From a virus: 64,000 nucleotides of DNA. The notes under the pieces were generated by a model. The model searched no databases. It saw only the letters and a list, made by a program, of their open reading frames with translations, and was not told where the DNA came from. Shown in pieces: positions 10,210 to 58,165 of this stretch. The DNA is taken from positions 256,001-320,000 of the IMG/VR virus record IMGVR_UViG_3300028840_006907; one strand, given 5' to 3'. Numbering within the stretch: the first letter of the stretch is position 1; each line of letters opens with the position of its first letter. The translations under genes were made by a program, and so were the position numbers.

Positions 10210-10226
10210 TTAATAATCTTTTGATA
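10210..10226 (+). promoter_or_regulatory. conserved 17-nt motif TTAATAATCTTTTGATA (copy 1)
   Basis: Starts 2 nt after the stop of 9276-10208; near-identical copies at 14813, 15260, 19013, 27282, 58149. Confidence 0.5.
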
Positions 10227-10284
10227 CGAAAGCTATATATAGATAGTAATAAAATCCAAATAACAAATACAGATAGGAGATAGT

Positions 10285-10464
10285 ATGAATCAGGTTGATA
10301 TTGAAAGAGAACGTCTTGCTTTTGATGAAAAAGTAGCACTTGCTGAATTAGAGGAAGCGAAAGCAAATCAGAGAGTGAAAGAAATTAAATATCAAAAAGC
10401 TCGTTTTTGTTTAGAAATTTTCGTAGCGAATGCTCGGGAAGAAACTCAAAAAACACAAGGATAG
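10285..10464 (+). CDS. small hypothetical protein (59 aa, predicted helical)
   Basis: ATG preceded by AGGAGA; below the ORF-track size cut-off; fills the gap between motif copy 1 and the next gene. Confidence 0.4.
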   Translation: MNQVDIERERLAFDEKVALAELEEAKANQRVKEIKYQKARFCLEIFVANAREETQKTQG

Positions 10465-10470
10465 AATTTT

Positions 10471-10782
10471 ATGCCAGGAGAATTAAAAGATCCTGAACAA
10501 TCTATACCTTTTCACTATGACCCTAAATATGATCAAGTCCCTGGTGCTAATCAGCCAGGGGCTAGAAATACTGATGGGTATATAGAATCTATTATTATGG
10601 AGAATTTAGGGATAAGAGTCAGTCCTGAGAAGATGGAAATGATCATAGAAAAATTGGACGACAAAGGATTCTTTCATAGAAATCCGGGTAGTCAGGAGTT
10701 CAGGGATGAAGTGGTCAAACTAACTAAACGCTTTGTAATGGCGGGAAGGGTCGCTAGAAAATGCCTGATTTTAATAAATTGA
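10471..10782 (+). CDS. hypothetical protein
   Basis: 103-aa ORF directly upstream of the portal region. Confidence 0.5.
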   Translation: MPGELKDPEQSIPFHYDPKYDQVPGANQPGARNTDGYIESIIMENLGIRVSPEKMEMIIEKLDDKGFFHRNPGSQEFRDEVVKLTKRFVMAGRVARKCLILIN

Positions 10783-11141
10783 TAACTGAAATTGATGATG
10801 ATAGTAAAGACATAAAGATAAAATTAGGAAATTTATTTGAAAAATATGAAAATCTTTATCGGGAAGGGAATAGACAGTTTAGAACAGAGAGAATAGCTTC
10901 TGCTGGGTCAATGGATGGTCTGGAAGAATTTCGTCGTTTGATGCTTATTGTAAAAAGAAATAAGGATGTAGTGGCCTCGCTAATGCGGGGTATAGCTAAT
11001 TTTAGGTCTATTTCAAATTTTAAGTTTGTAGAAGAGGAAGTAGAAATTTCAAAACCGAAACCAAAGAAAACAAAGAAAGCTACTCCTGAAAAAGTGATCA
11101 TACCTATACCAATAGTAGCGGAGGAATTTAATGGCGAATAA
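10761..11141 (+). CDS. hypothetical protein
   Basis: 126-aa ORF overlapping the previous by 22 nt; K/E-rich C-terminus. Confidence 0.5.
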   Translation: MPDFNKLITEIDDDSKDIKIKLGNLFEKYENLYREGNRQFRTERIASAGSMDGLEEFRRLMLIVKRNKDVVASLMRGIANFRSISNFKFVEEEVEISKPKPKKTKKATPEKVIIPIPIVAEEFNGE

Positions 11142-14100
11142 ACGAATAAGAGTTGTAACAGCGCAAGATAATGTACCGAAACGGGCAACTCGAAGAAAAG
11201 TAGTCAGCAGGGATACTAATCCTAAGGTGACAAATCTTACAGATAATGAAAAAAGAGCCAGACGGATTGCTACAACAACATCTATGGGATTCGGTCTTCG
11301 TTCTGCAAGTGATATTGTAAATAGCAGTGAAGCAAACTTTTACTCCCCCCAATTAAGTACTGATTTTCTTGAGAAGCCACAGAATCTACGTGAACGTAGA
11401 GCCTTTTATAGATTCTTTTATAATACGAATGAAATTATCGGACAATCTATTGATATTCATTCCACATTACCTCTTTCGAAATTGCGTCTCGTTCCTCCAA
11501 AAGGGAGAAATAAACATCAGAACAATTACGTTTTTAAGTTTTTCCAAAAGATGTGTGATGAAATGAAGCTCTTTAAAACACTTATTGAGATAACTCATGA
11601 ATACTTTCTTTTTGGTAATTGCTTGGCTAAGTATGCCGAGGTAAAGACTCCCTTTGGGTATAAGGAAGCGAAAGAGATAGAAGTAGGTGACTTCTTATTG
11701 ACAGATAAAGGGCGCTATAGGAAAGTCTTGAAGAAATGTGTAAGACCTTCTGAAAATGTTCTCAAAGTTAAATGTTGGAAAGATTTTAGGGAATTACCTG
11801 TTTCTGAAGAACATCCTATAGAAATATTAAAAGATGATGGCTTTGTTTTTGCCCAAGCTGAGGAATTGTCCTTAAACGACTATATCCGAGTTACTTGGCC
11901 TACTGAAATATCTGATAAAGAATATGTTCCTTTTGAATTTACAGATAAATATACAAAAGTGGAAAATGGCTATGAGTTAAAATTTGAAGTACTGCGTACC
12001 AGAAATCCTCATGCTTTCCGTGCTCGAAAAGAATTATTATCATGGCTAAGTTCTTTATCTAAACCAGTAATAAGGACAAGAAAACAGTTGTCCGAAGATT
12101 TTGATGTTCCTCTTTCCACATTGAATAATGTGATTTATAAACTTGGGAAAGAACTTGATGTAAAATTTCATGAAAGAATAGGTGCTTCAGGTTTTCAAAA
12201 AGGTTCTCAAGTAAAATGGTTTCCTATTGAGGACATAGAAGTCACGGATTCCTATAGTATTCATAAAACCCTATTTTTAGATGCTATTGATGGAATTGAT
12301 ATCAATAATGATTTTGCGTATCTTGCAGGATATTGGTTGGGAGATGGCACTTTGGCTCGTGATTCGCAAAGAGGGACATGGGGTCGTGGTTTGTGGCAAA
12401 TTTCAGTAGACCAGGAATTTGAAGGTTTAAATCGGATACGAAGTATTTTACATAATTTTTTTGGTTCTGGTAATGTGATAGAATGGAATTCGGGTAATCT
12501 ACTTTATTTAAAAGTTATCTCAAATCCTGCTTTTTTAGAATGGTGGGCTGAAAATTTTGGTGAAACTTCTTTCGGTAGAAATTATAAAAGAATTCCTGAA
12601 TGGTTTATAAAACTTCCTATGGAAAAACTTCAAAATTTTCTGGCAGGTTTGATAGATTCAGATGGTTGTATTAGTGTGAGTGGTGAAAATCAGAAATGTA
12701 TAACGAATATCTCAATGGCGTCTCGAAATATAATGGATTCTGTAAGAGACATAACTTTAAAATGTGGTGTTGTAGTGAATTACAACGAAGGAACTGAAAG
12801 AGAAGTTACTTTACCACAGGGAGACAAATGTTTCTCAAAAAAAATGTATACTGTAACAGCCTCAGATGAAGAATCCTGTAAAATTTTAACTCAATATGCC
12901 ACAAAAAGTATACCTGTAGATGCCCAATTCTCAGAAATGGGAAGATATTGGATAAGAACTGATTCAGGTTTAGCCTTCAAAATTAAGTCTATAAAAACAG
13001 AAGAATATAATGATTTAGTATACAATTTTGAAGTAGAAGAAGACCATACCTATCAAGTAGCTGGTTTTAGTACTCATAATTGCTTTATTTTTGCTGAAGA
13101 AGATGATTGGAAGGAAGGTATAACTACCGAAAACATAGGACAGAAAAAAGAAGAGGCCAAACAACGTTCCCAGCTCCTTAAAGATAAATTTGATATTAAG
13201 GATAAGAATCCTCTTTATAAAGGATGGAAAAAGCTTCTTATACTTCCTCCTGACCAGGTTAGGGTTCGTAAACTTCCTCTTACTGATGAGGTAGCAATTG
13301 AATATATGCCTGATCCGGAAACTCGAAAATTTCTGACTTCTGATATACCAATTGATCCTACAGATCCTACAAGAAGGTTAGACTATTCTATTTCTAATGA
13401 ATTGCGGGAAAAAGTACGTCAAAGTGGGGTTATACCTTTGGATACCGATCCTTATACAGGTTCACATGTTTTTCATCTGGCAAGAAAGAAATCACAATAT
13501 GAGCCTCTTGGTGTATCTATCGTTGAGCGTTGCATAAATACTCTTGTTTTAATGGATAAATTGAGACAGGCTCAGACATCGATTGCATCGCGTCACATGA
13601 CTCCTATGCGTGTTGTATGGGCTGAGGACTTAAATTCGGATGATGTCGATAATTTACGTGAGCAGGTTGATCTTGCTTTAGTAGATCCTGATTTCAGTAT
13701 TATTGCCAATTATGAAATTCACTGGGAAGAAATGGGATCGAATGGCCGTTTATTAGATGTAGAAGCGGAAATGGAAAGCTCATTAAATAGATTATTTGCC
13801 GGATTAGGTGTGACTCGGGAAATGTTAACTGGTGAAGGTACTTATACAGGGAGTAGAGTTTCATTAGAAATAATGAATACTATGTATCTTCTTTTCCGTG
13901 AAGTGCTCCAGGATTATATAGAAAATACATTGTTTAAGCCTATAGCTAAAAAGAAGGGTTTTATAGAATATGATGAATATGGTAATGAGACACTTCTTTA
14001 TCCGAAAATCAGTTTTACCCGATTGGCTATTAGAGATAATGAGCAATATTTTGACGCAGCCTTTCAGTTATATCAGAAGGGTTCAATTTCCATCGATCTT

Positions 14101-14484
14101 ATTTTGGATATTCTTAATATTGATCCTGATGCGACCAGGGAAAAGATTGAACAAGATCTGTTTACTGTTAATGATAGTCTTTTCAATGAAATGATGAGAA
14201 ACCTTTATACAAATGTGGCTGCCCCACTTGTAGAGGAAACTAATGTTACTGAGAAATTGGCTAAATATCTTCATTTAGAAAAGACTGAAAAACCTGAGGC
14301 CACAGAAGGTGAATCTCGATTTAGTTCTGTTAATGGAAAGGATTACAGGAAAAAGCTTTCAAAAGTCATGAAATACTTTATTGATAATCCTGAAAAATTA
14401 AATTCCATTTTTGCAAAGAATGGACAGTTAAAACCTAAACAAGCGAGAAATAATCAATGCGTTGTCGCTCAATCCCGGAATTAA
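11131..14484 (+). CDS. portal protein interrupted by an intein
   Basis: 1117 aa; GGAGG RBS; exteins (aa 1-163 and 651-1117) total ~630 aa and carry a portal-like LFAGLGVTREMLTGEG motif; sits upstream of scaffold-like and capsid-like genes. Confidence 0.6.
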   Translation: MANKRIRVVTAQDNVPKRATRRKVVSRDTNPKVTNLTDNEKRARRIATTTSMGFGLRSASDIVNSSEANFYSPQLSTDFLEKPQNLRERRAFYRFFYNTNEIIGQSIDIHSTLPLSKLRLVPPKGRNKHQNNYVFKFFQKMCDEMKLFKTLIEITHEYFLFGNCLAKYAEVKTPFGYKEAKEIEVGDFLLTDKGRYRKVLKKCVRPSENVLKVKCWKDFRELPVSEEHPIEILKDDGFVFAQAEELSLNDYIRVTWPTEISDKEYVPFEFTDKYTKVENGYELKFEVLRTRNPHAFRARKELLSWLSSLSKPVIRTRKQLSEDFDVPLSTLNNVIYKLGKELDVKFHERIGASGFQKGSQVKWFPIEDIEVTDSYSIHKTLFLDAIDGIDINNDFAYLAGYWLGDGTLARDSQRGTWGRGLWQISVDQEFEGLNRIRSILHNFFGSGNVIEWNSGNLLYLKVISNPAFLEWWAENFGETSFGRNYKRIPEWFIKLPMEKLQNFLAGLIDSDGCISVSGENQKCITNISMASRNIMDSVRDITLKCGVVVNYNEGTEREVTLPQGDKCFSKKMYTVTASDEESCKILTQYATKSIPVDAQFSEMGRYWIRTDSGLAFKIKSIKTEEYNDLVYNFEVEEDHTYQVAGFSTHNCFIFAEEDDWKEGITTENIGQKKEEAKQRSQLLKDKFDIKDKNPLYKGWKKLLILPPDQVRVRKLPLTDEVAIEYMPDPETRKFLTSDIPIDPTDPTRRLDYSISNELREKVRQSGVIPLDTDPYTGSHVFHLARKKSQYEPLGVSIVERCINTLVLMDKLRQAQTSIASRHMTPMRVVWAEDLNSDDVDNLREQVDLALVDPDFSIIANYEIHWEEMGSNGRLLDVEAEMESSLNRLFAGLGVTREMLTGEGTYTGSRVSLEIMNTMYLLFREVLQDYIENTLFKPIAKKKGFIEYDEYGNETLLYPKISFTRLAIRDNEQYFDAAFQLYQKGSISIDLILDILNIDPDATREKIEQDLFTVNDSLFNEMMRNLYTNVAAPLVEETNVTEKLAKYLHLEKTEKPEATEGESRFSSVNGKDYRKKLSKVMKYFIDNPEKLNSIFAKNGQLKPKQARNNQCVVAQSRN
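11620..13080 (+). mobile_element. intein with LAGLIDADG homing-endonuclease domain (in-frame within portal gene)
   Basis: Begins with Cys after FGN, ends ...STHN followed by Cys; two LAGLIDADG motifs (LAGYWLGDGTL, LAGLIDSDGCI); 487 codons. Confidence 0.75.
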
Positions 14485-14816
14485 TCCGTTTAATTGCTAA
14501 AGAGATGGATAATGAGGGTGAGGTTGTTAAGAAGTTTAAGGCCAAACCAAAAAATAAACCTCCTCGTCGAAAGCCTTCTATTCAGAATGAAAGTAGTAAA
14601 TCTGATTATATGAAGAATTATATGGAAGAGTATCGGGGAGATGGTAAGGATTATCAAAAGAAGCCTGAATTGATAAAAGAACTTCGAAAGAAGCAAAGAG
14701 AACGTTTAAAGGGTAAAAAATTGCTAAAAGCTTCTGGTAATGTTGGCATAGGATCTAATACTCCTGTACGTGAATTATATATAACAGAGTCTTCTGATAT
14801 TCTATTTATAGATTAA
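14457..14816 (+). CDS. hypothetical basic protein
   Basis: 119-aa K/R-rich ORF overlapping portal 3' end; true start may be an internal ATG. Confidence 0.45.
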   Translation: MRCRSIPELIRLIAKEMDNEGEVVKKFKAKPKNKPPRRKPSIQNESSKSDYMKNYMEEYRGDGKDYQKKPELIKELRKKQRERLKGKKLLKASGNVGIGSNTPVRELYITESSDILFID

Positions 14817-14829
14817 TAATCTTTTGATA
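14813..14829 (+). promoter_or_regulatory. conserved 17-nt motif TTAATAATCTTTTGATA (copy 2)
   Basis: Overlaps stop codon of 14457-14816; 41 nt upstream of ATG at 14871. Confidence 0.5.
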
Positions 14830-15259: not shown

Positions 15260-15276
15260 TTAATAATCTTCTAATA
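15260..15276 (+). promoter_or_regulatory. conserved 17-nt motif, variant TTAATAATCTTCTAATA (copy 3)
   Basis: Starts 3 nt after the stop at 15257; 41 nt upstream of ATG 15318. Confidence 0.45.
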
Positions 15277-15317: not shown

Positions 15318-15887
15318 ATGAATATTATTTTATTAGTCCCCAAAGTGGTACAAAATTATATAGGTCAATTTCCAGAAGTTAGACATAATGCATATAATTA
15401 TTTCAATTATGATAACAGAATCATAGATGAAAGAGTTAATCGTCATGATCAAAAGCCCCCTTATAAAGGGCCAGATGATTTTTCTAATCCGGATTATGAC
15501 GCTTTGATTACATATGCTAAAACTATAATAAATCCTATTCTAGCTAAATATAGTATGAAAGTGGCTCATGAGGATGCTCTTCATACAGCAATTCGTGATT
15601 TCAATAACGGTTTATTCGATGGTAAAGTTAATGCCTCTAAATTTGAAGTATTGTTGAAAGGGATGGCTTTACCTGCAGTGCCAATGCAACCTCCTTGTCC
15701 GTGTGGGGTTATGGCCAAGAAAGAAGATAAAAAAGAAAAACCTACTGAAATTAAACCTCATGTTTTAAAACAGTTAGGTTTAAGTCCTAAAGATATTCCA
15801 ATGAGACAAGTTGTTAAAAAAGTGGTGCAAAGAGGTAAGGCACCCCTTGTTGTTCGTGAAAAAGGTAAGCATATAATTAAGAAATAA
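15318..15887 (+). CDS. hypothetical protein
   Basis: 189-aa ORF with ATG start. Confidence 0.55.
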   Translation: MNIILLVPKVVQNYIGQFPEVRHNAYNYFNYDNRIIDERVNRHDQKPPYKGPDDFSNPDYDALITYAKTIINPILAKYSMKVAHEDALHTAIRDFNNGLFDGKVNASKFEVLLKGMALPAVPMQPPCPCGVMAKKEDKKEKPTEIKPHVLKQLGLSPKDIPMRQVVKKVVQRGKAPLVVREKGKHIIKK

Positions 15888-19012: not shown

Positions 19013-19029
19013 GTTTCAATTATTAATAA
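19013..19029 (+). promoter_or_regulatory. conserved 17-nt motif, variant TTAATAATCTTTTAATA (copy 4)
   Basis: Intergenic, 72 nt upstream of ATG 19102. Confidence 0.45.
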
Positions 19030-19101
19030 TCTTTTAATATTGGTATGATGGACAACAAAAAAGATTAAAAATAAAAGATAAATATTCATAGGAGGTTAAA
19101 C

Positions 19102-21437: not shown

Positions 21438-21460
21438 GAATTGATACTTATTGATAAAAA

Positions 21461-21507
21461 GGGCTATTAGAGGGACAGTCCCCACTAATGGCCCTTTCTT
21501 TTTTTAT
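21461..21507 (+). terminator. rho-independent terminator after capsid gene
   Basis: ~14-bp GC-containing stem (GGGCTATTAGAGGG / CCCACTAATGGCCC) followed by TTTCTTTTTTT. Confidence 0.75.
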
Positions 21508-25038: not shown

Positions 25039-25215
25039 AATTTTCCTTAAAAAAGATGTTTGAATTATAACTAAAATATAATTCAAACATCAACAAATTT
25101 TATGTAGAAATAAATTGTATGGGGAGAATCCCACAATATCTAAGTATACTAAAAAGTTTAGACAAAGACAAAGAAAAAAACTAATTTGAAGAAATAAAAT
25201 ACTATATTAAGTAAG

Positions 25216-25248
25216 AAATATACCAAAATAGCCCAAAATATACCAAAA
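25216..25248 (+). promoter_or_regulatory. two direct repeats AAATATACCAAAA in divergent intergenic region
   Basis: Copies at 25216-25228 and 25236-25248 (20-bp centre-to-centre) between the minus-strand cassette and gene 25374. Confidence 0.4.
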
Positions 25249-25373
25249 GTTTTTGCTTATTTCATCTAAGTCTAATTTTTTGAAGTATTTGGAATAAAAA
25301 TAATATAATTTATGATTTATTATGGTTTTTCTTATTAAGTAGATCGTGTATCTAATTTTGAAAGGAGTTGCCT

Positions 25374-27281: not shown

Positions 27282-27298
27282 TTAATAATTTATTGATA
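27282..27298 (+). promoter_or_regulatory. conserved 17-nt motif, variant TTAATAATTTATTGATA (copy 5)
   Basis: 34 nt upstream of ATG 27333. Confidence 0.4.
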
Positions 27299-29865: not shown

Positions 29866-31947
29866 ATGAAACCAACAATTTCTCTTGTAATGGTAGTCTA
29901 TAATGTCAGTAAGACACTTGATAGATGTCTTAAAGGTTTTAGTCAGTGTTCGGATGAAATAGTAGTTGTTATAGATAATAAAACAACGGATAATAGTGAA
30001 GAAATTGCTCGAAAATATACCGATAAAATTTATCATTTCGATTGGATAGATGACTTTTCTGCCGCGAGAAATTTCTCTTTTGATAAGTGCACATGTGATT
30101 TTATCCACTGGTGCGATGGTGATGATTACATTCTTCCTGAAGATATAAAAATGATAAATGATCTAGATCTTACTGATTGGGATATGGTTGTTATGGATTA
30201 TGTCTATGCTCAGGATGAGTTTGGAAATGATAAATCGGTTGTCCCCAGAGAGAGAATTATAAGAAGATCTCTGGGATTGAAATGGGAGGGTGAAATACAT
30301 GAGTGTATTTTACTTCAAGGAAGAGTAAAACATACCCATATCCGAACTTATCATGATAAACAGCATGGGACTTCTGAACGTAATCTTGCCATATTAGAAA
30401 GAATTACTGAGAAAAATCCTAGTTCAAGAAATCTCTATTATCTCGGTAAAGAATATTATGATATGGGTAGAATTGATGAGGCAATTAATTATCTTTTGAA
30501 ATTTCTTGATTGTCCTGATGCCTTTTGGGAAAATGCTTATCAGGCTCATTGTAAATTGGCTATGGCTTATTTACAGAAAAAAGATGAGACTAGATTTAAA
30601 AAGCATATTTTTGAATCGATTAAGATGGAAGACCGTCAGGCAGAACCTATATATTTTCTCGCTTTATATTATATGAATAAAGGTCAATGGGATAGAGCTA
30701 TTCAGTGGTTTGAAGTATGTGCTCATATGGAGCATCCTGCAGATCTTCTAGGTGCTCATTTACCAGAATATTATACATGGTTACCTAATTTAAATCTTTG
30801 TGTTTGTTATAATGCTATTGGTGAAATTGAGAAAGCATACGAATGTAATGAAAAAGTTTTGAAATACCGTTCAAAAGATCCTCGTGCTGTCAGTAATAGA
30901 GAAATTCTTAAAAATGCTTTAAACTCAAAAAAGAAGAAAGAAGATGGTCAAGGTAAAAAACTGAATCTCGGTTGTGGTGGTAAACCTGTAGAGGGTTTTG
31001 TCAGTGTTGATATATTTAAAAGTCCCAAAATTGATGAAGTTTTTGATATGGGTGATATTCCGTATAAAGATAATACTATAGGAGCTATTTATAGTGAGCA
31101 TGCTTTAGAACATGTTTCTTTTGAACGAGTAGAAGAAGTTCTTAAAGAATGGTTTCGAGTTTTACAACCAGGGGGAGAACTTTTCCTTTATATGCCTGAT
31201 TTTGAAAATTGTTGTAAAAGTTATATAAATGCTCCGATTGACCATCCTCATTTTATGAATACTAAAGCTTGGTTTAAATATACTGTCTATGGAATTCAAA
31301 AGAGTCAGGGCGGGGAACCAGATGAAGCCCAGTTCCATCTTAGTGGCTTTTCAAAAGAGGAGATAAAAATAGTATTAGAACGGAATGGTTTTGTTATTGA
31401 TAAAGTAGAAAATTATGGTGGGGAAGGTCAGAAGCCTGATTATGGAACTCCTTCTATGGAAATCCATGCCCGAAAGCCTGAAGTAAAAAAGGAAATAATA
31501 CCTGTCAAGAAAGAGTCTGTGAAAGTGGTAGAGAAACCGAAACCTGTGAAAAAGGATTCGGGTATAAAGGTAGCCTGGATCGGGACTGAGAATTGGGTAG
31601 CTGCTCAGACAAGAATCAGAATATTAAATGTGCATCAATGGTTAAATGACCATGGTATAGAATCGGTGGTAACAAATAACTGCAAGGATGTAATCACGCA
31701 AGATTTTGATGTAGCCATTGTCGGAAAGAGATTTGATGAAGAAATTTATAATGGTGTCAAGGAATTGAAGAAGTCCAATAAAATAGTCTATTGCGATTTA
31801 TGTGAGGATGTTGTTAATTGGGCCTGGGTAAATGAGATAATGGTTGAATGTGATAAAGTTATCTGTTGTTCTAATACTCTTGCTGAGAGGGTGAAGCCAG
31901 TGAATCCTAATGTTGTAGTTATTGAAGATGCCTACGAGATGGTATAA
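29866..31947 (+). CDS. multidomain glycosyltransferase (GT2) / TPR-like / class I methyltransferase fusion
   Basis: 693 aa; N-terminal GT-A motifs (SLVMVVYN, DxD in WCDGDD); central SAM-methyltransferase motifs (LNLGCGGKP, LQPGGELFLYMPD). Confidence 0.65.
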   Translation: MKPTISLVMVVYNVSKTLDRCLKGFSQCSDEIVVVIDNKTTDNSEEIARKYTDKIYHFDWIDDFSAARNFSFDKCTCDFIHWCDGDDYILPEDIKMINDLDLTDWDMVVMDYVYAQDEFGNDKSVVPRERIIRRSLGLKWEGEIHECILLQGRVKHTHIRTYHDKQHGTSERNLAILERITEKNPSSRNLYYLGKEYYDMGRIDEAINYLLKFLDCPDAFWENAYQAHCKLAMAYLQKKDETRFKKHIFESIKMEDRQAEPIYFLALYYMNKGQWDRAIQWFEVCAHMEHPADLLGAHLPEYYTWLPNLNLCVCYNAIGEIEKAYECNEKVLKYRSKDPRAVSNREILKNALNSKKKKEDGQGKKLNLGCGGKPVEGFVSVDIFKSPKIDEVFDMGDIPYKDNTIGAIYSEHALEHVSFERVEEVLKEWFRVLQPGGELFLYMPDFENCCKSYINAPIDHPHFMNTKAWFKYTVYGIQKSQGGEPDEAQFHLSGFSKEEIKIVLERNGFVIDKVENYGGEGQKPDYGTPSMEIHARKPEVKKEIIPVKKESVKVVEKPKPVKKDSGIKVAWIGTENWVAAQTRIRILNVHQWLNDHGIESVVTNNCKDVITQDFDVAIVGKRFDEEIYNGVKELKKSNKIVYCDLCEDVVNWAWVNEIMVECDKVICCSNTLAERVKPVNPNVVVIEDAYEMV

Positions 31948-33844: not shown

Positions 33845-34657
33845 ATGAGTGAGTATATTCCTCAAATTTGTATTAGTGCTAGTGATCCTGTTAATTCGGT
33901 AAAAAGTCTACAGGGAAGTATTATAGGTATTCTATTTGAAAAAAAGGGTAAAGAAATTAAAAGTTCTATTTATGATAGACTCAAATCAATAGATAATAAA
34001 ATCAAAGAATATGAATCAGTATGTGGTAAGACTGAATCATTTGTGGAAGAGAAAGAGAAAGAACTAAAATCTTTAAAGGAATTTCATCAAACAAAAGAAG
34101 ACGAAAAAAAGGCTCTATTATTGCCTATTAAAAAGGAAATTGAAGAAAAAATAAAAAGAGCCAATGATATTACTTATGAATTTGATCTTAGTGTGTTTAA
34201 TGCAACAAAAGAGAAAGCGATTGAATTTGAAAAAGGTTTTGATGATATTAAAAATAAATTTGATGAGATAGATAATTTACTTATAAAAGATAGAGCTGTT
34301 ATTAAAGGTGCCAGAGGTATTCAGGGTTCAACAGGTCTTATGGGAGAAACGGGGATTCAGGGAGAACCTGTTCACGGTATAGGTTATGGAAGTGATGGTA
34401 ATATAGGAATAGGTACTGATAACCCTGATTCTATTCTTCATATGGGGACTGATCCAGGAGATAAAGCATATAGTAGATTAAATACACTTAATAATCTTTT
34501 AAAAAAATATATCAATAAACTGGAATCATTAAAAGAAGGTATTAATAGATTGAAAGAAGAAAAGAGACGTCTTCAATTAACCTATGATAATATTGATGAA
34601 TCCAGGGATTACAAATTAGATCTTAATATGTTGTCTGCTTTCGGTTTCGAAAAATAA
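33845..34657 (+). CDS. coiled-coil protein with short collagen-like (G-X-Y)7 segment
   Basis: 270 aa; RBS AAAGGAGA; GARGIQGSTGLMGETGIQGEP flanked by heptad-like K/E-rich sequence. Confidence 0.55.
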   Translation: MSEYIPQICISASDPVNSVKSLQGSIIGILFEKKGKEIKSSIYDRLKSIDNKIKEYESVCGKTESFVEEKEKELKSLKEFHQTKEDEKKALLLPIKKEIEEKIKRANDITYEFDLSVFNATKEKAIEFEKGFDDIKNKFDEIDNLLIKDRAVIKGARGIQGSTGLMGETGIQGEPVHGIGYGSDGNIGIGTDNPDSILHMGTDPGDKAYSRLNTLNNLLKKYINKLESLKEGINRLKEEKRRLQLTYDNIDESRDYKLDLNMLSAFGFEK

Positions 34658-40681: not shown

Positions 40682-40930
40682 ATTCCCACCCAATAAATTT
40701 TATAGCCGATCAAAAATTAAAGATAATATAATGCATTTCTAAATTTCAAATTTCCTTTAATTCAAAGGGTATTTCAGTGTCTCTTTGTGGCTCTTCAGTT
40801 TAATAATCATTTAATATTAGCTTCTAATTAGGTAGAGTTATACAAGAAATATTTATGAATAAATTCGATTATCTATTAATAGTTAACCGTTTTAAAAGCA
40901 TAGAAAATCTTAGGAATAAAAAGAGGCTGT

Positions 40931-43146: not shown

Positions 43147-43176
43147 ATTTACATATAGATATTGAAAGGAGATTGT

Positions 43177-44151: not shown

Positions 44152-44154
44152 CTT

Positions 44155-44856: not shown

Positions 44857-44865
44857 GAGGATAAA

Positions 44866-49141: not shown

Positions 49142-49155
49142 TAGGAGGACGAAGT

Positions 49156-51052: not shown

Positions 51053-51055
51053 AAT

Positions 51056-52374: not shown

Positions 52375-53158
52375 ACGAATAGTGTTAGTCAGAAATATGG
52401 GAAACAGTGGCGGTGCCTGGTTAATGAAGGTATTTAATATGCATGAAAACATATTAATGTTTCAGGAATTAAACCAGATACTGAGGTTAAGATATGATTA
52501 TTCGGATATAAATAAGAAGAATCTAAATTACCCTCATGTTGACTATGATGTAAAAATAGCTCAACGGAGTCGTGATCTTAAAGGATTTTTATTTAATAGT
52601 AGAACTCAGTGTCATATAGCAACTAGTTTTCTTTTATATCAATATGATATTAGAAAAGAAGATGCGATTGGGTTAATAAAATGTTTTGATCATGAATCTA
52701 TAAGAGAATGTAGAGTAAAATGTCCTTCTGTTAAAGTTGTACAAGTTTTAAGAAATCCTATTGGTATAATAGATTTTTATATGAGTCAGGAAAATTTAAG
52801 GCAAATAGCCCATCATGATCCATATGAAATATCTTTTAAAAAACATGTGGATTTCTTTCATAATAAATTTATAGATTTTTGGGAAAATAATGAAAAAAAA
52901 GGTGAGAAAATTATACGACTAGAAGATTTGAATATATCATTGAAAGATGGAAATCCTTTCTTAAAAGACACTATGGAAGATTTATTTGAAGTTAATTTCT
53001 CAAATGAATTTATTGAAAAAATCAAACAAAATTTAGGTTATGGGAATGAAGGTAACCAGAATAAAGAGATATGGCAAAACTGGGAAGGATGGAAAAAAGA
53101 ATATTTCAAGAAATATTTCGAAAATCTAATGATGAATCTTGGCTATGAATTGAGGTGA
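52367..53158 (+). CDS. sulfotransferase-like protein
   Basis: 263 aa; VRNMGNSGGAWL (5'-PSB-like) and LRNPIGIIDFYMS (3'-PB-like); paralog of 48446-49141. Confidence 0.4.
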   Translation: MSKRIVLVRNMGNSGGAWLMKVFNMHENILMFQELNQILRLRYDYSDINKKNLNYPHVDYDVKIAQRSRDLKGFLFNSRTQCHIATSFLLYQYDIRKEDAIGLIKCFDHESIRECRVKCPSVKVVQVLRNPIGIIDFYMSQENLRQIAHHDPYEISFKKHVDFFHNKFIDFWENNEKKGEKIIRLEDLNISLKDGNPFLKDTMEDLFEVNFSNEFIEKIKQNLGYGNEGNQNKEIWQNWEGWKKEYFKKYFENLMMNLGYELR

Positions 53159-53161
53159 TAA

Positions 53162-53737
53162 ATGAATTTATTTGAATCTGCGTACTATACTGAAGAGGAT
53201 CTGAGAAAAGGCGGTTTTAAAAGTGTCGGTAAAAATGTTCAGATTGATAAAAGTTGCACGATAATAGGCTTAGATAAAATCACTCTAGGAGATAATGTTC
53301 GAATCGATGGTTACTGTTGTATTATTGCCACAAAAGAGGAAGTGATTTTCGGTTCTTATATTCATATAGGTTCGTTTTGTCATCTCTGTGGAACTGCAGG
53401 TCTTATAATGAAAGATTTTTCAGGTTTGTCACAAGGAGTTCGAATTTACTCCTCTTCTGATGATTATTCAGGAAAGTTTTTAACTAATCCAACTGTTCCC
53501 GATAAATACACAGGTATAATAAGAGAACCAGTTATTATAGGTAAACATGTTATAATCGGGGCTAATACTGTTATTCTTCCAGGAGTTGTTATAGGTGATG
53601 GGTCAGCTATTGGTGCCATGTCCCTTGTAACAAAAGACGTAGATAAAAATAGTGTCTATGCAGGTTGTCCAGCGAAATTTATAAAAACACGTTCAAAAAG
53701 AATATTTGATTTAGAGAAGAGGTTATTAAATGAATAA
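53162..53737 (+). CDS. hexapeptide-repeat (LbH) sugar acetyltransferase
   Basis: 191 aa; repeated [LIV]-G-x-x-x-x hexapeptides (VIIGKHVIIGANTVILPGVVIGDGSAIG). Confidence 0.7.
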   Translation: MNLFESAYYTEEDLRKGGFKSVGKNVQIDKSCTIIGLDKITLGDNVRIDGYCCIIATKEEVIFGSYIHIGSFCHLCGTAGLIMKDFSGLSQGVRIYSSSDDYSGKFLTNPTVPDKYTGIIREPVIIGKHVIIGANTVILPGVVIGDGSAIGAMSLVTKDVDKNSVYAGCPAKFIKTRSKRIFDLEKRLLNE

Positions 53738-54443
53738 ATCAATTTTCATATGTTCAGGAGGTCGATGTGGTACACATTGGGTTCGGCCTATTCTTGCTCA
53801 GCTTTTAGATTTACAAACTGGGTTTGATTGGAAAGGATATAATCCAAATAAAATTCCCTTTAAAACAGAACCTGGAGCTATTTGGAAAATAAAGATGGTA
53901 GAAAAGAGAGAGCCAGGAGGAAGGATTTATTCAGGGCATATGCCAATTACAGAACTTCTACCTATTATCAGTTTAGTAAATATAATAATTCTTATAAGAG
54001 ATCCTAGAGATATGTGTGTTTCGGCTGCATATTATACTCCAGAAAGAAGAGTATTAACTCAAGAAGAATTTGAATCTAAATTTAATAATTTATTAATACA
54101 AGGAAGCCCGAATCCTGATTTTCATGAATCTTATATAGAAAGTAAGAATAAAATACCTCATTTTTTATTAAAATATGAAGATATGATTCATGATGATTAT
54201 GGCTCAATAGTTAAATTTTTAAATAATTCAGGTTATAAATTTGAAGAAGAAAAATTAAAATATGTACTTGATAAAAACTCATTCAAGAATTTATCAGGTG
54301 GACGAGAAGCCGGTGAGGAGGATAATACCGCTTTTTATAGAAAAGGTATTGTGGGTGATTGGGTAAATTATCTCTCTAATGGTTTACTTGAACAATATAC
54401 CGATAGGCATAAAACTTTGTTGGAAGAATGGGGGTATATGTAA
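53730..54443 (+). CDS. sulfotransferase
   Basis: 237 aa; CSGGRCGTHW (5'-PSB-like) and LIRDPRDMCVSAAYY (3'-PB RDPxD..VS.Y). Confidence 0.55.
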   Translation: MNKSIFICSGGRCGTHWVRPILAQLLDLQTGFDWKGYNPNKIPFKTEPGAIWKIKMVEKREPGGRIYSGHMPITELLPIISLVNIIILIRDPRDMCVSAAYYTPERRVLTQEEFESKFNNLLIQGSPNPDFHESYIESKNKIPHFLLKYEDMIHDDYGSIVKFLNNSGYKFEEEKLKYVLDKNSFKNLSGGREAGEEDNTAFYRKGIVGDWVNYLSNGLLEQYTDRHKTLLEEWGYM

Positions 54444-54444
54444 T

Positions 54445-55116
54445 ATGGAAGATTATTTTGAACAAATGGTAACAGTTTTTAAAAAGTACTTTAAAGAGTA
54501 TTATCGTAATGTATTCACAAATCAATCAGTGGAAACCTGTACAGGTATTTATAATCTTTGTAAAAAAGAAAATCCAGATCAAGTAGTGGAAATGGGAACC
54601 AATCATGGGGCTTCTACTCTTTCTATAGTAAAAGCACTGACTGATTTAGGGAAAGATTTGTCTATTATTACTTCAATTGATTTAGACCACGAGAAATGGA
54701 AGGCAACATTTAATATACAAAAAGAATTGATTAAAAAGTATGATTTAAATTTAGGAAAAGTAAAATTAATAACTCAAGATTTTAATTCAGTAGATCCTGT
54801 AGAAATAATTGACCCTGAAAAGAAAGTATTTATTTTTTATGATATGCATGATCATCGAGGCCCATGGTCACAGAGACTACTTGATTTATGGGTACCTTTA
54901 GTTAAGAATGGTGTCTTCTCTATTCATGATGTAACTCCTGTAAGTGAATCCTTTGAAATAGTTCAGGATAAAATTTCCCCTCGAACAAAGATACAGTATA
55001 AGAGTGGGCAGTATTTTGCAGGTTTCAATGAATGTTTTCGAATAATAAAATGGGCAAATACAAATAACATAAATATAGAGATATTTCCAGGAGGAGTATA
55101 TTTCAGAAATGGCTAA
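54445..55116 (+). CDS. class I SAM-dependent methyltransferase-like protein
   Basis: Start at ATG just after upstream stop (track start 54379); VVEMGTNHGASTLSI motif. Confidence 0.5.
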   Translation: MEDYFEQMVTVFKKYFKEYYRNVFTNQSVETCTGIYNLCKKENPDQVVEMGTNHGASTLSIVKALTDLGKDLSIITSIDLDHEKWKATFNIQKELIKKYDLNLGKVKLITQDFNSVDPVEIIDPEKKVFIFYDMHDHRGPWSQRLLDLWVPLVKNGVFSIHDVTPVSESFEIVQDKISPRTKIQYKSGQYFAGFNECFRIIKWANTNNINIEIFPGGVYFRNG

Positions 55117-55795
55117 CATTTTTATTGGAAAAAATATGTCAAATATAAAAAATATTCCTGGTTTAAATAAAATAACAAAGATACATGATGTGGCTGATTA
55201 TGTGAGATTAGCTGATTTTGTCTATAAAACAATTTCCCATTCTATGGATAGTGGGATTGATTTAGATTATTCTGTTAATCAATTGTATTGGCAATTTGTG
55301 AATAAAAAGAGATTTGGATGGTGCTATATGCATGCTCTGTATTATCATCTTATAGTACAAGAATATGGTCGTGAATCTTTTGTTTATGATTATGGCTTAC
55401 CAGCGCCACAATTAACTCATAGTGTTGTTGTAGTAACTTTACGTGATGATAAGTATTTAATTGATCCTTATTTTAATCGTTATTATGTAACAGAAAAAGG
55501 GAATCCGTATACATTTCCTGACTTATTGGCTATGATAAAAACTGATCCAACAAAAATTTATAGTAAATATGGACCTGGTTTGAAAGAAGTTAAACAGGGA
55601 GATAAATATATAGAAACTTCTCCTGAACAATTTGAAAAAGGAGTATTGGAATCGTGGCGAGTAAATCAGAATTATGATAAAATAATGATGGAAAAATTTA
55701 ATAGCACAAATGCATTATTATTAATGCATTGTAAAGTACAAAAAGCTAAAGTATGTAAAAAAATAGATGGGACAAAGTATTTTGACTTTTTCTAA
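55109..55795 (+). CDS. hypothetical protein
   Basis: 228-aa ORF inside glycan island. Confidence 0.5.
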   Translation: MANIFIGKNMSNIKNIPGLNKITKIHDVADYVRLADFVYKTISHSMDSGIDLDYSVNQLYWQFVNKKRFGWCYMHALYYHLIVQEYGRESFVYDYGLPAPQLTHSVVVVTLRDDKYLIDPYFNRYYVTEKGNPYTFPDLLAMIKTDPTKIYSKYGPGLKEVKQGDKYIETSPEQFEKGVLESWRVNQNYDKIMMEKFNSTNALLLMHCKVQKAKVCKKIDGTKYFDFF

Positions 55796-56570
55796 TGTTA
55801 TATCCTTTATCAGTGCATTTAAAAAGTTTAAACCTCCTTATGGTATGATACAGCATTCTGCTATGTATTCATGGAATGCTAATAATATTGAAGTATTTGT
55901 TCCAGATAATGAGGTTGGAGTTAAAGATGCTTGTCAGAGTTATCCTAATATTAAATTAATCCCCGATGTTAAACGGGCTCGGGAAATGGGCTTTTCAAAT
56001 CAGTCTCCTATGGTAAAAGATCTGATTGCAAAAGCTCTACCTTTAATCAATACTCCGATGGTAGCTTTAATTAATTCAGACATTATAATTCAACCTGATT
56101 TTATAGAAAGAATAGAAAAAATACTGAAAGAATACGGTTTTGATATTTATATGGTGGGAACTCGATTTGATATTAAATTGGATATTCATATAAGTTCGGA
56201 AGAGACATATAAACAGGTATTGAGTTCAGAACGAAAAAGTTATGATGGCAGTACTTCTTCAGATATATTTATAGCTTCTAAATTTACCTGGAGGAAGATA
56301 GTTCATGAAATGCCTGATTTTATTCTAGGTCGGTATGGGTGGGATAATTGGTTACATATGATTGCAGAACTTAAAGGATATCGTAAATTTAATTGTACAG
56401 ATGCTTTGACTATTCTTCATTGTGAGCATGATCATAAGCATATAGTTCTTCAGGAAAAGGCTGAAAAACAAAGTGCTCCAAGTTCACAGCATAATTTAAA
56501 GTTATGGAATGAAGTAAAAAATGTTTATGGGACGACCAGGATAAATGCATGGCCAAAAATTGAAATATAA
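55767..56570 (+). CDS. hypothetical protein (possible glycosyltransferase)
   Basis: 267-aa ORF; weak GT-like ALINSDIIIQPDF; overlaps previous gene. Confidence 0.45.
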   Translation: MGQSILTFSNVISFISAFKKFKPPYGMIQHSAMYSWNANNIEVFVPDNEVGVKDACQSYPNIKLIPDVKRAREMGFSNQSPMVKDLIAKALPLINTPMVALINSDIIIQPDFIERIEKILKEYGFDIYMVGTRFDIKLDIHISSEETYKQVLSSERKSYDGSTSSDIFIASKFTWRKIVHEMPDFILGRYGWDNWLHMIAELKGYRKFNCTDALTILHCEHDHKHIVLQEKAEKQSAPSSQHNLKLWNEVKNVYGTTRINAWPKIEI

Positions 56571-56571
56571 T

Positions 56572-56610
56572 AGGGGTAAAGAAGTTTCTCTACCCCTACA
56601 TGCACATTTT
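56572..56610 (+). terminator. candidate terminator hairpin
   Basis: 7-bp stem AGGGGTA/TACCCCT with 12-nt loop, T-run shortly downstream; weak. Confidence 0.3.
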
Positions 56611-56661
56611 AACCACAATCCCATCTTATGGCTAAAAATATAATAAAAGGATGATACAAGA

Positions 56662-57480
56662 ATGAACCTTCTTCAGAGAGTAAAAAAATATTGGGATGAT
56701 AGACCCTGTAATATACGCCATTCAAAGGAACCCGTTGGAACCAGAAATTATTTCAATGAGGTTGAATATAAAAAATATAAAGTTGAACCGCATATATCAG
56801 GTTTCGCTGATTTTAATAAATGGAAGGATAAAAAGGTCCTTGAGATAGGCTGTGGGCTGGGCACTGAGACTATAAATTTTGCTAGAGCTGGTGCTAGGGT
56901 TGTCGCTGTGGATATGTCTGAGAAATCTTTGGAGCTGGCTAAGAAACGAGCGGAAGTTTTTGGCTTGTCCGATAAGATTACATTTTATCAGGGAAATGCT
57001 GAAGAACTTGATAAATTTATCCCAGCTCAGAAATTTGATCTTATCTGGTCTTTTGGTGTTATTCATCATACCCCGAATCCTGAGAACGTTATTGAATGTA
57101 TCAAGAAGTACCTGTCTCCAAGCAGTGAATTACGAATGATGGTTTATAATAAATTTAGTTGGAAAGTATTCTGGATCCTTTTTAAGTACGGGAAGTTTAA
57201 GTTTTGGGATATTGATAAATTCATAGCTCAAAATTCAGAAGCTCAGACCGGGTGCCCAATCACCTACACTTATACAAATAAATCAGTTCAAAAATTACTA
57301 AAAGGGTTTGTAATCGATAATATTAAAATTGAGCATATTTTTCCTTATAAAATTCGTGAATATAAGGAGAATAAATTCAAATTTATCTGGTATTTTAGAT
57401 ACCTGCCCAAATGGTTTTTTCATTGGTTAGAAAAGAGAATCGGTTGGCATATGTGCATAATCGCCAGATGGAGAATTTAG
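56662..57480 (+). CDS. class I SAM-dependent methyltransferase
   Basis: 272 aa; motif I VLEIGCGLGTET, VVAVDMS. Confidence 0.7.
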   Translation: MNLLQRVKKYWDDRPCNIRHSKEPVGTRNYFNEVEYKKYKVEPHISGFADFNKWKDKKVLEIGCGLGTETINFARAGARVVAVDMSEKSLELAKKRAEVFGLSDKITFYQGNAEELDKFIPAQKFDLIWSFGVIHHTPNPENVIECIKKYLSPSSELRMMVYNKFSWKVFWILFKYGKFKFWDIDKFIAQNSEAQTGCPITYTYTNKSVQKLLKGFVIDNIKIEHIFPYKIREYKENKFKFIWYFRYLPKWFFHWLEKRIGWHMCIIARWRI

Positions 57481-57601
57481 GGGTGGCCAGCCCCGCGTAG
57501 GCGGGGAAAAGGGATACGATAAGAAAAAATCTGCTCTGTGGAACAGCCCCACGAAAGTGGGGAATAATGCCACCCATTTTAAAAGATAGTATTGGGTGGT
57601 C
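57481..57601 (+). other. GC-rich multi-hairpin element between convergent genes
   Basis: Hairpins CCCCGC-GTAG-GCGGGG (57491-57506) and CCCCAC-GAAA-GTGGGG (57547-57562); GGGTGGC (57481-87) and GGGTGG (57594-99) both complementary to GCCACCC (57569-75). Confidence 0.5.
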
Positions 57602-57631
57602 TTTTAAATCAACTCTAAATTTTCCAGGAGT

Positions 57632-58096
57632 TTACAACCAGTCATCTTCTTTTCGGATAGATATTTTAGATAAAGTATCATTGTTAAGAAAAAGAGTTAC
57701 AATATAACGAACCCATTGATCATCATAATACCCAAATTCTTGTATTTCACTATTATCTGGAAATGAATCTACTATAACACTAGGTCCATAAACTTTCAGG
57801 ATTTTTCTTTTTGACATTCCAATCTTTAAATTTTGAAATTTACCTTCTTTAATTTCGATGTTATATAATCGGTGAGCAAAGATGTAACAAACCATATTCG
57901 GATAGTGCATATAAAGATCACTTTTAATAGTATCAATTTTTATAGGTTCTCCGAATTTTTCTATAACATCTTTAACAGTAAGGTCTTTTCGAAGATCGAA
58001 ATCAGGTCCGAATGGGAAGACACCGCAACTGTCGATTGAACGACTGAAGCATAAACTTACAAAAAGTATGATTGATATTAAAGTTTTCATATTCAC
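57632..58096 (-). CDS. secreted hypothetical protein (signal peptide)
   Basis: 154 aa; RBS GAGAGGAG; N-terminal MNMKTLISIILFVSLCFS. Confidence 0.6.
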   Translation of the reverse strand: MNMKTLISIILFVSLCFSRSIDSCGVFPFGPDFDLRKDLTVKDVIEKFGEPIKIDTIKSDLYMHYPNMVCYIFAHRLYNIEIKEGKFQNLKIGMSKRKILKVYGPSVIVDSFPDNSEIQEFGYYDDQWVRYIVTLFLNNDTLSKISIRKEDDWL

Positions 58097-58148
58097 TCCT
58101 CTCTATATATTATACCAGTCAAATAGCCATTTTATACCAAAAAAAATT

Positions 58149-58165
58149 GTAATAATCTTTTAATT
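58149..58165 (+). promoter_or_regulatory. conserved 17-nt motif, variant GTAATAATCTTTTAATT (copy 6)
   Basis: 30 nt upstream of ATG 58196. Confidence 0.4.

What the first reader, a model, noticed from the sequence alone, without database searches (positions are those of the whole stretch)
10210..58165. Conserved 17-nt intergenic motif TTAATAATCTTTTGATA upstream of at least six genes
Near-identical copies at 10210-10226, 14813-14829, 15260-15276, 19013-19029, 27282-27298 and 58149-58165, all on the + strand, each 30-72 nt upstream of a start codon and several abutting the preceding stop. No consistent sigma70-like -10 follows at fixed spacing, so it may be a promoter for a virus-encoded polymerase or sigma factor, or a binding site for a regulator. 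A partial copy (TTAATAATCG) lies at 35251-35260 inside the inverted-repeat region.
Basis: seen in the sequence. Interest (0 to 1): 0.5.

Follow-up and report, generated by a model that had tools for sequence, protein, structure and literature searches.

The report
Conserved promoter-like motif of a huge phage
A 17-base AT-rich sequence sits, always pointing towards the gene, in front of head-assembly and sugar-synthesis gene blocks of an uncultivated ~390 kb phage and of its relatives; it is most likely the phage lineage's own (probably late) promoter, which is an ordinary kind of element, although the protein that reads it was not found.

Summary
One coordinate is off by 10 nt: the copy is at 19023-19039, not 19013-19029. 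Two further intergenic copies exist, at 40800 and a weaker one at 6963.

A weight matrix built only from related phages gives 10 hits in the window, all on the + strand. Eight of them lie in the 4.7% of the window that is non-coding. About 0.8 hits per strand are expected by chance.

The window is part of a 388,651-bp metagenomic phage contig, distantly related to Bacillus phage G. In about 1 Mb of related phage DNA the same element, TAATAATCTnTTAATAy, occurs 141 times:
- 133 hits are on the gene-sense strand and 125 are non-coding.
- They recur before the same orthologous genes, namely the capsid operon, the protease operon and the portal operon.
- The genomes range from 33% to 57% GC, and the flanking sequence is not conserved.

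No -35 element or downstream -10 element accompanies the motif. Copies follow terminators directly. Just past the window end, two copies sit back to back in a divergent intergenic region.

The best reading is a self-contained, lineage-specific promoter for structural and glycan genes. It is probably read by a phage-encoded sigma-like factor or another specificity factor. That factor was not found in the 84 kb I could see. This is a new member of a known kind, of moderate interest.

The parts
6963..6980 (+). Weak variant copy GTAATAATGTATAAATAT, 68 nt before the gene at 7049-8779 (576 aa).
   Evidence: Scores at least 14 bits with the matrix built only from relatives, and 14.6 bits with the first matrix. 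Intergenic.
10210..10226 (+). Copy TTAATAATCTTTTGATA. It lies 1 nt after the stop of gene 9276-10208 and 58 nt before the first ORF of the block that holds the portal gene (11131-14484).
   Evidence: Portal assignment.
14813..14829 (+). Copy TTAATAATCTTTTGATA. It overlaps the stop codon of gene 14457-14816 and lies 41 nt before the ATG at 14871.
   Evidence: An orthologous copy is present in 12 related loci and in L178.
15260..15276 (+). Copy TTAATAATCTTCTAATA. It lies 2 nt after a stop codon and 41 nt before gene 15318-15887, the first gene of the block ending in the prohead protease (17421-18989).
   Evidence: An orthologous copy is present in 23 related loci.
19023..19039 (+). Copy TTAATAATCTTTTAATA, the best-scoring one. 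It lies 62 nt before gene 19102-19935, which heads the three-gene unit ending in the major capsid gene (20565-21437).
   Evidence: 25 bits. Conserved at the orthologous place in about 50 relatives while the flanks diverge.
21458..21505 (+). Intrinsic terminator after the major capsid gene: a 40-nt hairpin followed by CUUUUUUU. It closes the transcription unit that starts at the 19023 copy.
   Evidence: Fold of -24.4 kcal/mol, z = -4.5. Sequence shown.
27282..27298 (+). Copy TTAATAATTTATTGATA, 34 nt before gene 27333-27764.
   Evidence: 15.7 bits.
40800..40816 (+). Copy TTAATAATCATTTAATA in a 254-nt intergenic region. It lies 114 nt before the UDP-glucose dehydrogenase gene (40931), the first gene of a run of about 19 co-directional sugar-synthesis and modification genes that extends to 57480.
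Evidence: 19.7 bits.
58149..58165 (+). Copy GTAATAATCTTTTAATT, 30 nt before gene 58196-58963. It lies in a 99-nt divergent intergenic region; the upstream neighbour, 57632-58096, is on the other strand.
   Evidence: 16.9 bits.
54082..54098 (+). Good match TTAATAATTTATTAATA inside gene 53730-54443. It could be an internal promoter of the long sugar operon or a chance match.
   Evidence: 18.4 bits. Coding position. No comparative data.
30485..30501 (+). Weak match inside gene 29866-31947, probably chance.
   Evidence: 12.6 bits.
34488..34504 (+). Weak match inside gene 33845-34657, probably chance.
   Evidence: 14.7 bits.

Best explanation
The motif, with lineage consensus T-A-A-T-a-a-T-C-T-n-T-T-A-A-T-A-y, is a self-contained promoter used by this lineage of huge phages. 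It starts transcription of the head-morphogenesis units (portal block, protease block, capsid operon) and of the large glycan-synthesis and modification blocks.

Transcription would start within or a few bases after the motif and run through the downstream co-directional genes until a terminator, such as the one after the capsid gene.

The 17 conserved bases are contiguous and no -35 or separate -10 element accompanies them. The same AT-only sequence is kept in phage genomes from 33% to 57% GC. I therefore infer that specificity comes from a phage-encoded factor and not from the host's housekeeping sigma. A sigma-like or tandem helix-turn-helix protein directing host RNA polymerase is the more likely reader; a phage RNA polymerase is less likely.

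The two TAATA half-sites lie 11 bp apart, on one face of the helix.

What is shown: position, strand, conservation and absence of accompanying elements.
For: - **Within the window.** A matrix built only from relatives gives 10 hits on the + strand and 0 on the - strand. Eight hits fall in the 4.7% of the window that is non-coding.
- **Outside the window, same contig.** A divergent 252-nt intergenic region carries two copies pointing outward. One is 61 nt and the other 85 nt before its gene. One of them heads the operon that lies on the - strand at 58948-63731 in the window.
- **Relatives.** In about 1.0 Mb of related phage DNA (6% non-coding) there are 141 hits: 133 on the sense strand and 125 non-coding.
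- **Orthologous positions.** The element recurs before orthologues of gene 19102 (50 loci), 15318 (23), 14835 (12) and the portal block (6). L178 repeats the window's layout of portal, motif, gene, motif, gene.
- **Footprint.** In 106 non-redundant sites, only positions 2-18 carry information, about 20 bits. The 30 nt upstream and 45 nt downstream carry almost none.
- **GC range.** The motif is kept in genomes up to 54-57% GC (L042, L054).
- **Terminators.** Terminator hairpins end directly at the motif in L031, L001 and L002, leaving no room for another promoter. The capsid unit ends in a strong terminator.
- **Distance to the gene.** The distance to the start codon varies from 24 to 113 nt with a lower bound of about 24, apart from a single 13-nt value. 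This fits a promoter followed by a 5' UTR that holds a Shine-Dalgarno sequence.
- **Sigma70.** Sigma70-type sites are not enriched: 79 found against 75 expected.
- **Sigma-like proteins in the wider group.** Phage G gp3 and a roughly 1000-member double region-4 family in the LR745208.1 branch are both encoded 8-11 kb upstream of the portal gene.
Against: - There are no transcript 5' ends, so initiation at the motif is not shown.
- No sigma factor, RNA polymerase or other candidate reader was found in the window (Pfam scans of about 46 of the 77 ORFs called). Profile searches for the two sigma-like families over all ORFs of at least 50 aa in the window, both flanks and the capsid-gene loci also found none.
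- The sigma-like proteins of relatives occur in genomes that do not carry this motif. They were not detected on the long motif-bearing contigs in IMG/VR.
- The complete relative LR745208.1 lacks the motif altogether.
- 'Late' timing is inferred only from the kind of genes downstream. The glycan blocks need not be late.
- Three matches lie inside genes.
Confidence: 0.62

Rival explanations
1. The motif is an operator: the binding site of a phage activator or repressor that sits beside a weakly conserved host-type promoter. It controls the transcription units but is not the promoter itself.
For: Two TAATA half-sites lie 11 bp apart, as in sites for tandemly bound regulators. Relatives encode proteins with two tandem region-4-like helix-turn-helix domains. 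Literature on this phage group notes expansions of helix-turn-helix and zinc-ribbon proteins (PMC7824862).
Against: No -10-like element is conserved at any fixed distance downstream, and no -35 upstream, in 106 sites. In several relatives a terminator hairpin ends exactly where the motif starts. In the window the start codon can be only 30 nt after the motif. This leaves little room for a separate core promoter.
Confidence: 0.15
2. The motif is an ordinary promoter read by a host sigma factor, housekeeping or alternative, whose consensus in the unknown host happens to look like this. No phage factor would be involved.
For: Positions 3-8 (AATAAT) and 13-18 (TAATAy) both resemble a -10 hexamer. 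In many capsid-operon copies a TG precedes the motif, as in extended -10 promoters. The host is unknown, and a capsid-gene scan of bacterial and archaeal genomes gave nothing.
Against: The ten bases after the first -10-like hexamer are the most conserved part of the motif; C at position 9 carries 2.3 bits. A sigma70-type enzyme would not require that. G replaces the would-be -11 A of the second register in three window copies. The same 17 bases are kept in phages of 33-57% GC, which are unlikely to share one host. A separate sigma70-like site, TTGAAG-18-TATAAT, exists in the 281-nt divergent region at 25280-25309.
Confidence: 0.1
3. The motif acts in RNA, not DNA. It would be a 5'-UTR element: a processing site, a stability element, or the target of a translational repressor on transcripts that start further upstream.
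For: Sense-strand specificity and position before start codons would also be expected of an RNA element. The pyrimidine run UCUnUU could in principle pair with the Shine-Dalgarno sequence.
Against: - The distance to the start codon varies from 24 to 113 nt.
- Predicted pairing with the Shine-Dalgarno sequence occurs at 35 of 98 sites, against 20-35 when the motif is shuffled.
- The motif has no self-complementarity, and there is no Rfam match.
- Copies occur in divergent intergenic regions and directly after terminators, where upstream transcription is absent or stopped.
Confidence: 0.05

Closest known systems
T4-type late promoters (TATAAATA, read by the minimal sigma gp55 with gp33 and the sliding clamp)
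   Same: A single short AT-rich element without a -35, placed before structural genes. The 3' half of the motif, TnTTAATA, matches TATAAATA at 6 of 8 positions, or 7 of 8 when n = A, which holds in 45 of 106 sites. The T4 consensus is quoted from established knowledge.
   Different: Eight further conserved bases, TAATAATC, lie immediately upstream, which T4 late promoters lack. No gp55 or gp33 homologue was seen. Jumbo phages of the phage G group are reported to lack the T4-type set (PMC7824862).
Promoters of single-subunit phage RNA polymerases (T7, T3, SP6 type)
   Same: One contiguous block of about 17 bp that begins with TAATA and ends in an A/T-rich segment, with no bipartite structure.
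   Different: There is no conserved initiating sequence after the block; positions beyond 18 carry no information. No polymerase gene was found in the window, and none among nine large proteins of the complete relative LR745208.1.
Single-element middle/late promoters read by phage-encoded sigma factors (phiEco32 gp36; Bacillus phage SPO1 gp28 and gp33/34)
   Same: A phage-specific consensus replaces the host consensus for later genes, and host core polymerase is redirected by a small phage sigma. Relatives of this phage encode small region-4-containing sigma-like proteins next to the head genes.
   Different: The consensus sequences are unrelated. The cognate factor of this motif is unknown. 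The sigma-like proteins found belong to branches that lack the motif.
Late promoters of the non-virion multisubunit polymerases of phiKZ/AR9-type jumbo phages
   Same: Jumbo phage, with a short lineage-specific promoter before late genes.
   Different: No beta-prime catalytic motif (DFDGD type) occurs in any ORF of LR745208.1 or of the related loci. The capsid is HK97-type, related to that of phage G, and this phage group is described as lacking such polymerases.

Membership tests
Sigma70/sigmaA housekeeping promoter | Two hexamers (-35 and -10) separated by 17 +/- 1 bp | tested here: not met
   There is no information content in the 30 nt upstream of the motif in 106 sites. Consensus sigma70-like sites number 79, against 75 expected in shuffles.
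Sigma70/sigmaA housekeeping promoter | A -10 hexamer TAnnnT with near-invariant A at -11 and T at -7 | tested here: inconclusive
   Two registers are possible: AATAAT at positions 3-8 and TAATAy at positions 13-18. In the second register, G replaces A in 3 window copies, and the last base is T in only 61 of 106 sites.
T4-type late promoter | A single 8-bp element TATAAATA with no other conserved bases | tested here: not met
   The 3' half resembles it at 6-7 of 8 positions, but 8 further bases upstream are equally conserved.
T4-type late promoter | gp55-type minimal sigma and gp33 encoded by the phage | not testable with these tools
   Only 84 kb of the 388,651-bp contig could be read. None was seen there.
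T7-type single-subunit polymerase promoter | A contiguous conserved block of about 17-23 bp spanning the start site | tested here: inconclusive
   The block is contiguous and 17 bp long. The start site is unknown, and no bases after the block are conserved.
T7-type single-subunit polymerase promoter | Phage-encoded single-subunit RNA polymerase | tested here: inconclusive
   None was found in the window proteins scanned or among nine large proteins of LR745208.1.
phiKZ/AR9-type non-virion polymerase promoter | Phage-encoded split beta/beta-prime subunits | tested here: not met
   No DFDGD-type catalytic motif occurs in the ORFs of LR745208.1, the window or 80 related loci.
Phage-specific promoter (generic: cis element marking starts of phage transcription units) | Intergenic, co-oriented with the downstream gene, and present on either strand according to gene direction | tested here: met
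Phage-specific promoter (generic) | Conserved at orthologous positions in related genomes while flanks diverge | tested here: met
Phage-specific promoter (generic) | Transcripts start at a fixed position relative to the element | not testable with these tools
   No transcript data are available for this uncultivated phage.

The most novel reading that the evidence does not exclude
The motif is the promoter of a transcription system not yet described. A phage-encoded factor would read two TAATA half-sites one helical turn apart and recruit RNA polymerase without any -35/-10 architecture. One candidate is a diverged member of the tandem region-4 helix-turn-helix family seen in the sister branch, with changed recognition helices. 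This would occur in a group of huge phages that the literature describes as having neither their own polymerase nor a sigma factor.
Probability: 0.3. Interest if true: 0.6.

Novelty: new member of a known kind. Interest (0 to 1): 0.4.

Why it matters
Huge phages related to phage G are known almost only from metagenomes, and how they time their gene expression is unknown. One comparative study states that this group lacks both RNA polymerase and sigma factors.

A sharply defined promoter consensus of about 20 bits, conserved across many such genomes, has three uses:
- It marks the transcription units of the head and glycan modules.
- It allows the regulon to be read directly from sequence in any member of the lineage.
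- It defines the DNA target needed to search for the cognate factor by co-variation or binding assays.

It is not a new kind of element.

Tried and rejected
This sigma-like protein has region 4. Its family is well conserved, but loci that encode it lack the motif. No homologue is in the window or the relatives.
- **Complete relative LR745208.1.** I fetched all 485 kb. It has 55% GC, no motif and different enriched upstream words, so it does not inform on this motif.
- **Double region-4 family.** LR745208.1 carries a protein with two tandem region-4-like domains. Two IMG/VR scans returned only loci of 42-67% GC. The loci of the first scan have no motif. No long motif-bearing contig appeared in either scan.
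- **Exact-motif scan of IMG/VR.** Only L178 proved to be a relative. A metagenome-wide motif scan was not run for the same reason.
- **Capsid-gene scan of 185,579 bacterial and archaeal genomes.** No relative was found, so there is no host clue.
- **Walking further along the source contig.** The flanking protein is collagen-like and the search was flooded.
- **A helicase from LR745208.1 as a query for replication modules of relatives.** It found only itself.
- **Literature search for the sequence.** Nothing relevant.
- **tRNA and Rfam scans of the window.** Nothing.
- **HTH hits just after the capsid gene in relatives.** These are homing-endonuclease/methyltransferase fusions, not sigma factors.
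- **An archaeal BRE/TATA reading.** I considered and dropped it. At 58149 the Shine-Dalgarno sequence lies less than 20 nt after the motif, too close for a start site about 25 nt downstream of a TATA box. Cultured relatives infect bacteria.
Full report
**Observation.** The 17-mer TTAATAATCTTTTGATA and close variants are on the + strand at 10210, 14813, 15260, 19023, 27282 and 58149. There are 13 matches with up to 3 mismatches, against 2.5 expected, and no shuffle reaches 13. Reading all intergenic regions and scoring with a weight matrix added two intergenic copies. One is at 40800-40816, before the UDP-glucose dehydrogenase gene. The other is a weaker variant at 6963-6980. Three matches lie inside genes, at 30485, 34488 and 54082. 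The partial copy at 35251 has only the 5' half.

**Context.** The window is phage DNA.
- It holds a portal gene interrupted by an intein, a prohead protease and an HK97-type major capsid protein.
- Concanavalin-like fibre proteins lie upstream of these.
- A long series of glycosyltransferase, methyltransferase and nucleotide-sugar genes lies downstream.
- The capsid protein is 77% identical to that of the 485-kb uncultured phage LR745208.1, 50% to a Tunturiibacter jumbo phage and 40% to Bacillus phage G.
- The window is part of a 388,651-bp JGI metagenome contig. I could read 9.3 kb beyond one end and about 9.5 kb beyond the other.

**Statistics inside the window.** To avoid circularity I built a matrix only from related phages. 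It gives 10 hits of at least 10 bits on the + strand and none on the - strand. Eight of the ten lie in the 4.7% of the window that is non-coding. First-order Markov sequences give 0.76 hits per strand. Nearly all genes between 42 and 57480 are on the + strand.

**The minus-strand operon and the divergent pair.** The operon at 58948-63731 runs on the - strand and continues beyond the window. Its first gene is preceded by a copy, TTAATATTCTTTTAATA, on its own strand, 61 nt before the ATG. The same 252-nt divergent region holds a second copy pointing the other way, 85 nt before the oppositely oriented gene. Orientation therefore follows the gene, not the strand.

**Relatives.** Eighty IMG/VR loci around capsid-gene homologues, plus the window and its flanks, make about 1.0 Mb with 6% non-coding DNA.
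- The matrix finds 141 hits there: 133 on the gene-sense strand and 125 non-coding.
- The region upstream of the first gene of the capsid operon has diverged beyond alignment, yet the motif stands out as an island in about 45 loci.
- The gene downstream of a hit is the orthologue of window gene 19102 in 50 cases, of 15318 in 23, of 14835 in 12, and of the portal block in 6.
- A locus recovered independently, L178, repeats the window's arrangement of portal, gene, motif, gene, motif, gene.
- The motif is kept in genomes from 33% up to 54-57% GC. In those GC-rich genomes an all-A/T/one-C 17-mer cannot be a compositional accident.
- A sister branch of 53-64% GC, which includes LR745208.1, lacks it. 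At the capsid operon that branch shows a shorter T-rich TATA-like sequence instead.

**Anatomy.** In 106 non-redundant intergenic sites the information is confined to 17 contiguous positions, T A A T a a T C T n T T A A T A y. This is about 20 bits against the local background, somewhat inflated by the score threshold. C at position 9 is the strongest position. The 30 nt upstream and 45 nt downstream are essentially uninformative. So there is no -35 and no separate -10 at any fixed spacing. The sequence contains two TAATA half-sites 11 bp apart and has no dyad symmetry.

**Geometry.**
- Anchored on the Shine-Dalgarno sequence, the distance from the motif to the start codon runs from 24 to 113 nt, with a median of 50 and one outlier at 13.
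- In several relatives a strong hairpin, in two cases with a T-run, ends exactly at the first base of the motif.
- In the window, the unit that begins at 19023 runs through three genes. It ends in a -24 kcal/mol hairpin plus U-run right after the capsid gene.
- Together with the back-to-back pair in the divergent region, this is the layout of transcription-unit starts.

**Rivals tested.**
- *Sigma70-type promoters:* consensus sites are not enriched (79 found, 75 expected). One plausible site lies in the 281-nt divergent region at 25280-25309, which suggests that host-type promoters serve other genes.
- *RNA element:* there is no Rfam family or tRNA. The motif has no self-complementarity. Predicted pairing with the Shine-Dalgarno sequence is no more frequent than with shuffled motifs (35 of 98 against 20-35). 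The variable distance argues against a translational operator.
- *Operator beside a host-type promoter:* not excluded, but nothing else is conserved nearby and there is often no room for a core promoter.

- Pfam and PHROG scans of about 46 of the 77 window ORFs found no sigma factor or polymerase.
- Phage G gp3 carries sigma region 4 and belongs to a well-conserved family. Genomes that encode it lack the motif, and no homologue appears in the window or the relatives.
- I fetched LR745208.1 in full. It has no beta-prime catalytic motif and no polymerase domain among nine large proteins.
- LR745208.1 does have two paralogues of a 197-aa protein with two tandem region-4-like helix-turn-helix domains. 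The copy at 419691-420284 is encoded about 11 kb upstream of the portal. This is the same relative position as gp3 in phage G.
- That family has about 1000 members on huge-phage contigs, with almost invariant recognition helices. The IMG/VR loci that carry it have 42-67% GC and lack the motif. It was not detected on the long motif-bearing contigs.
- The wider group therefore does encode sigma-like proteins next to its head genes. This qualifies the statement in PMC7824862 that group 3 jumbo phages lack sigma factors. The factor for this particular motif remains unidentified, and attempts to read more of the source contig failed.

**Mechanism proposed.** I think the motif is a self-contained promoter.
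- Two registers are possible. In the first, positions 3-8 (AATAAT) act as a -10-like element. The conserved CTnTT would then be the discriminator, and the purine at position 14 or 15 (A, or G in three window copies) would be the start site. In the second, the 3' half (TnTTAATA, one or two changes from the T4 late consensus) is the melting element and TAATAATC is an upstream recognition element.
- Either way, the high and contiguous information content, the lack of a -35, and conservation across genomes of very different GC point to a dedicated, phage-encoded specificity factor.
- 'Late' is inferred from the head genes downstream. The glycan blocks share the signal, which suggests they are co-expressed with virion genes.

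**Comparison and novelty.** It works like the lineage-specific middle or late promoters of T4, SPO1, phiEco32 or T7-type phages. It fails the defining tests for a sigma70 promoter, for a bare T4 late box and for phiKZ-type systems. Membership of the T7 type is undecidable without the polymerase. I found no description of this consensus. It is best filed as a new member of a known kind, useful mainly as a handle on transcription in an uncultivated huge-phage lineage.

Noticed in passing
window 57481-57575 (+), between the convergent genes 56662-57480 and 57632-58096: A GC-rich structured element of about 95 nt in an otherwise 33% GC genome. Two 6-bp hairpins, CCCCGC-GTAG-GCGGGG and CCCCAC-GAAA-GTGGGG, are enclosed by a long-range stem GGGUGGC...GCCACCC. 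The fold is -42.9 kcal/mol with z = -3.9. There is no Rfam match. Similar small CCCC/GGGG hairpins occur in 5' leaders downstream of the motif in relatives. It could be a compound terminator or a small RNA.
   Followed up: partly
window 11131-14484 (+): The portal gene (1117 aa) is interrupted by an intein with a LAGLIDADG homing endonuclease, at about residues 200-650. The portal of relative L178 aligns over residues 78-1095 at 69% identity.
   Followed up: no
window 29866-39320, 40931-57480 and 58948-63731 (-), continuing in L203: More than 30 kb is devoted to glycan synthesis and modification. Genes include UDP-glucose dehydrogenase, epimerases/dehydratases, a DegT aminotransferase, NeuB, multidomain glycosyltransferase-methyltransferase proteins with TPR repeats, a sulfotransferase, a radical SAM enzyme and a split TPP-dependent E1/transketolase-like pair. 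Much of it follows the motif: the 40931-57480 run, and the minus-strand block that includes 58948-63731 (its copy lies past the window end in L203). No intergenic copy precedes 29866-39320.
   Followed up: partly
LR745208.1 419691-420284 (-) and 153886-154695 (+) (loci L238, L233): Two paralogues of a protein with two tandem sigma70 region-4-like helix-turn-helix domains. The family has about 1000 members on huge-phage contigs and nearly invariant recognition helices, SQPTVCYRLQRA and SQGLVRHRFIRS. The copy at 419691-420284 is encoded about 11 kb upstream of the portal, as gp3 sigma is in phage G. This qualifies the published statement that this jumbo-phage group lacks sigma factors.
   Followed up: partly
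loci L011, L027, L037, L047, L058, immediately downstream of the capsid gene: In several relatives, but not in the window, the capsid gene is followed by a large ORF. It combines repeated helix-turn-helix modules, a LAGLIDADG-like endonuclease segment and a methyltransferase domain. It looks like a mobile insertion.
   Followed up: no
window 39321-39545 and 40248-40364: Stretches that my crude gene caller left as 'intergenic' read as cysteine-rich zinc-ribbon-like peptides, for example CPRCG...CKCG. Phage G is reported to have a large expansion of zinc-ribbon proteins.
   Followed up: no
locus L032 8301-8377: Two motif copies in tandem, 59 nt apart, before the capsid operon. A perfect 9-bp hairpin (GCCTAATAA-AGA-TTATTAGGC) lies directly after the first copy. 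It may be a duplicated promoter or an attenuator.
   Followed up: no
window 25087-25367: A 281-nt divergent intergenic region without the motif. It holds the best sigma70-like site of the scanned stretch, TTGAAG-18-TATAAT at 25280-25309. It may be a host-type (early?) promoter for genes of unknown function.
   Followed up: no
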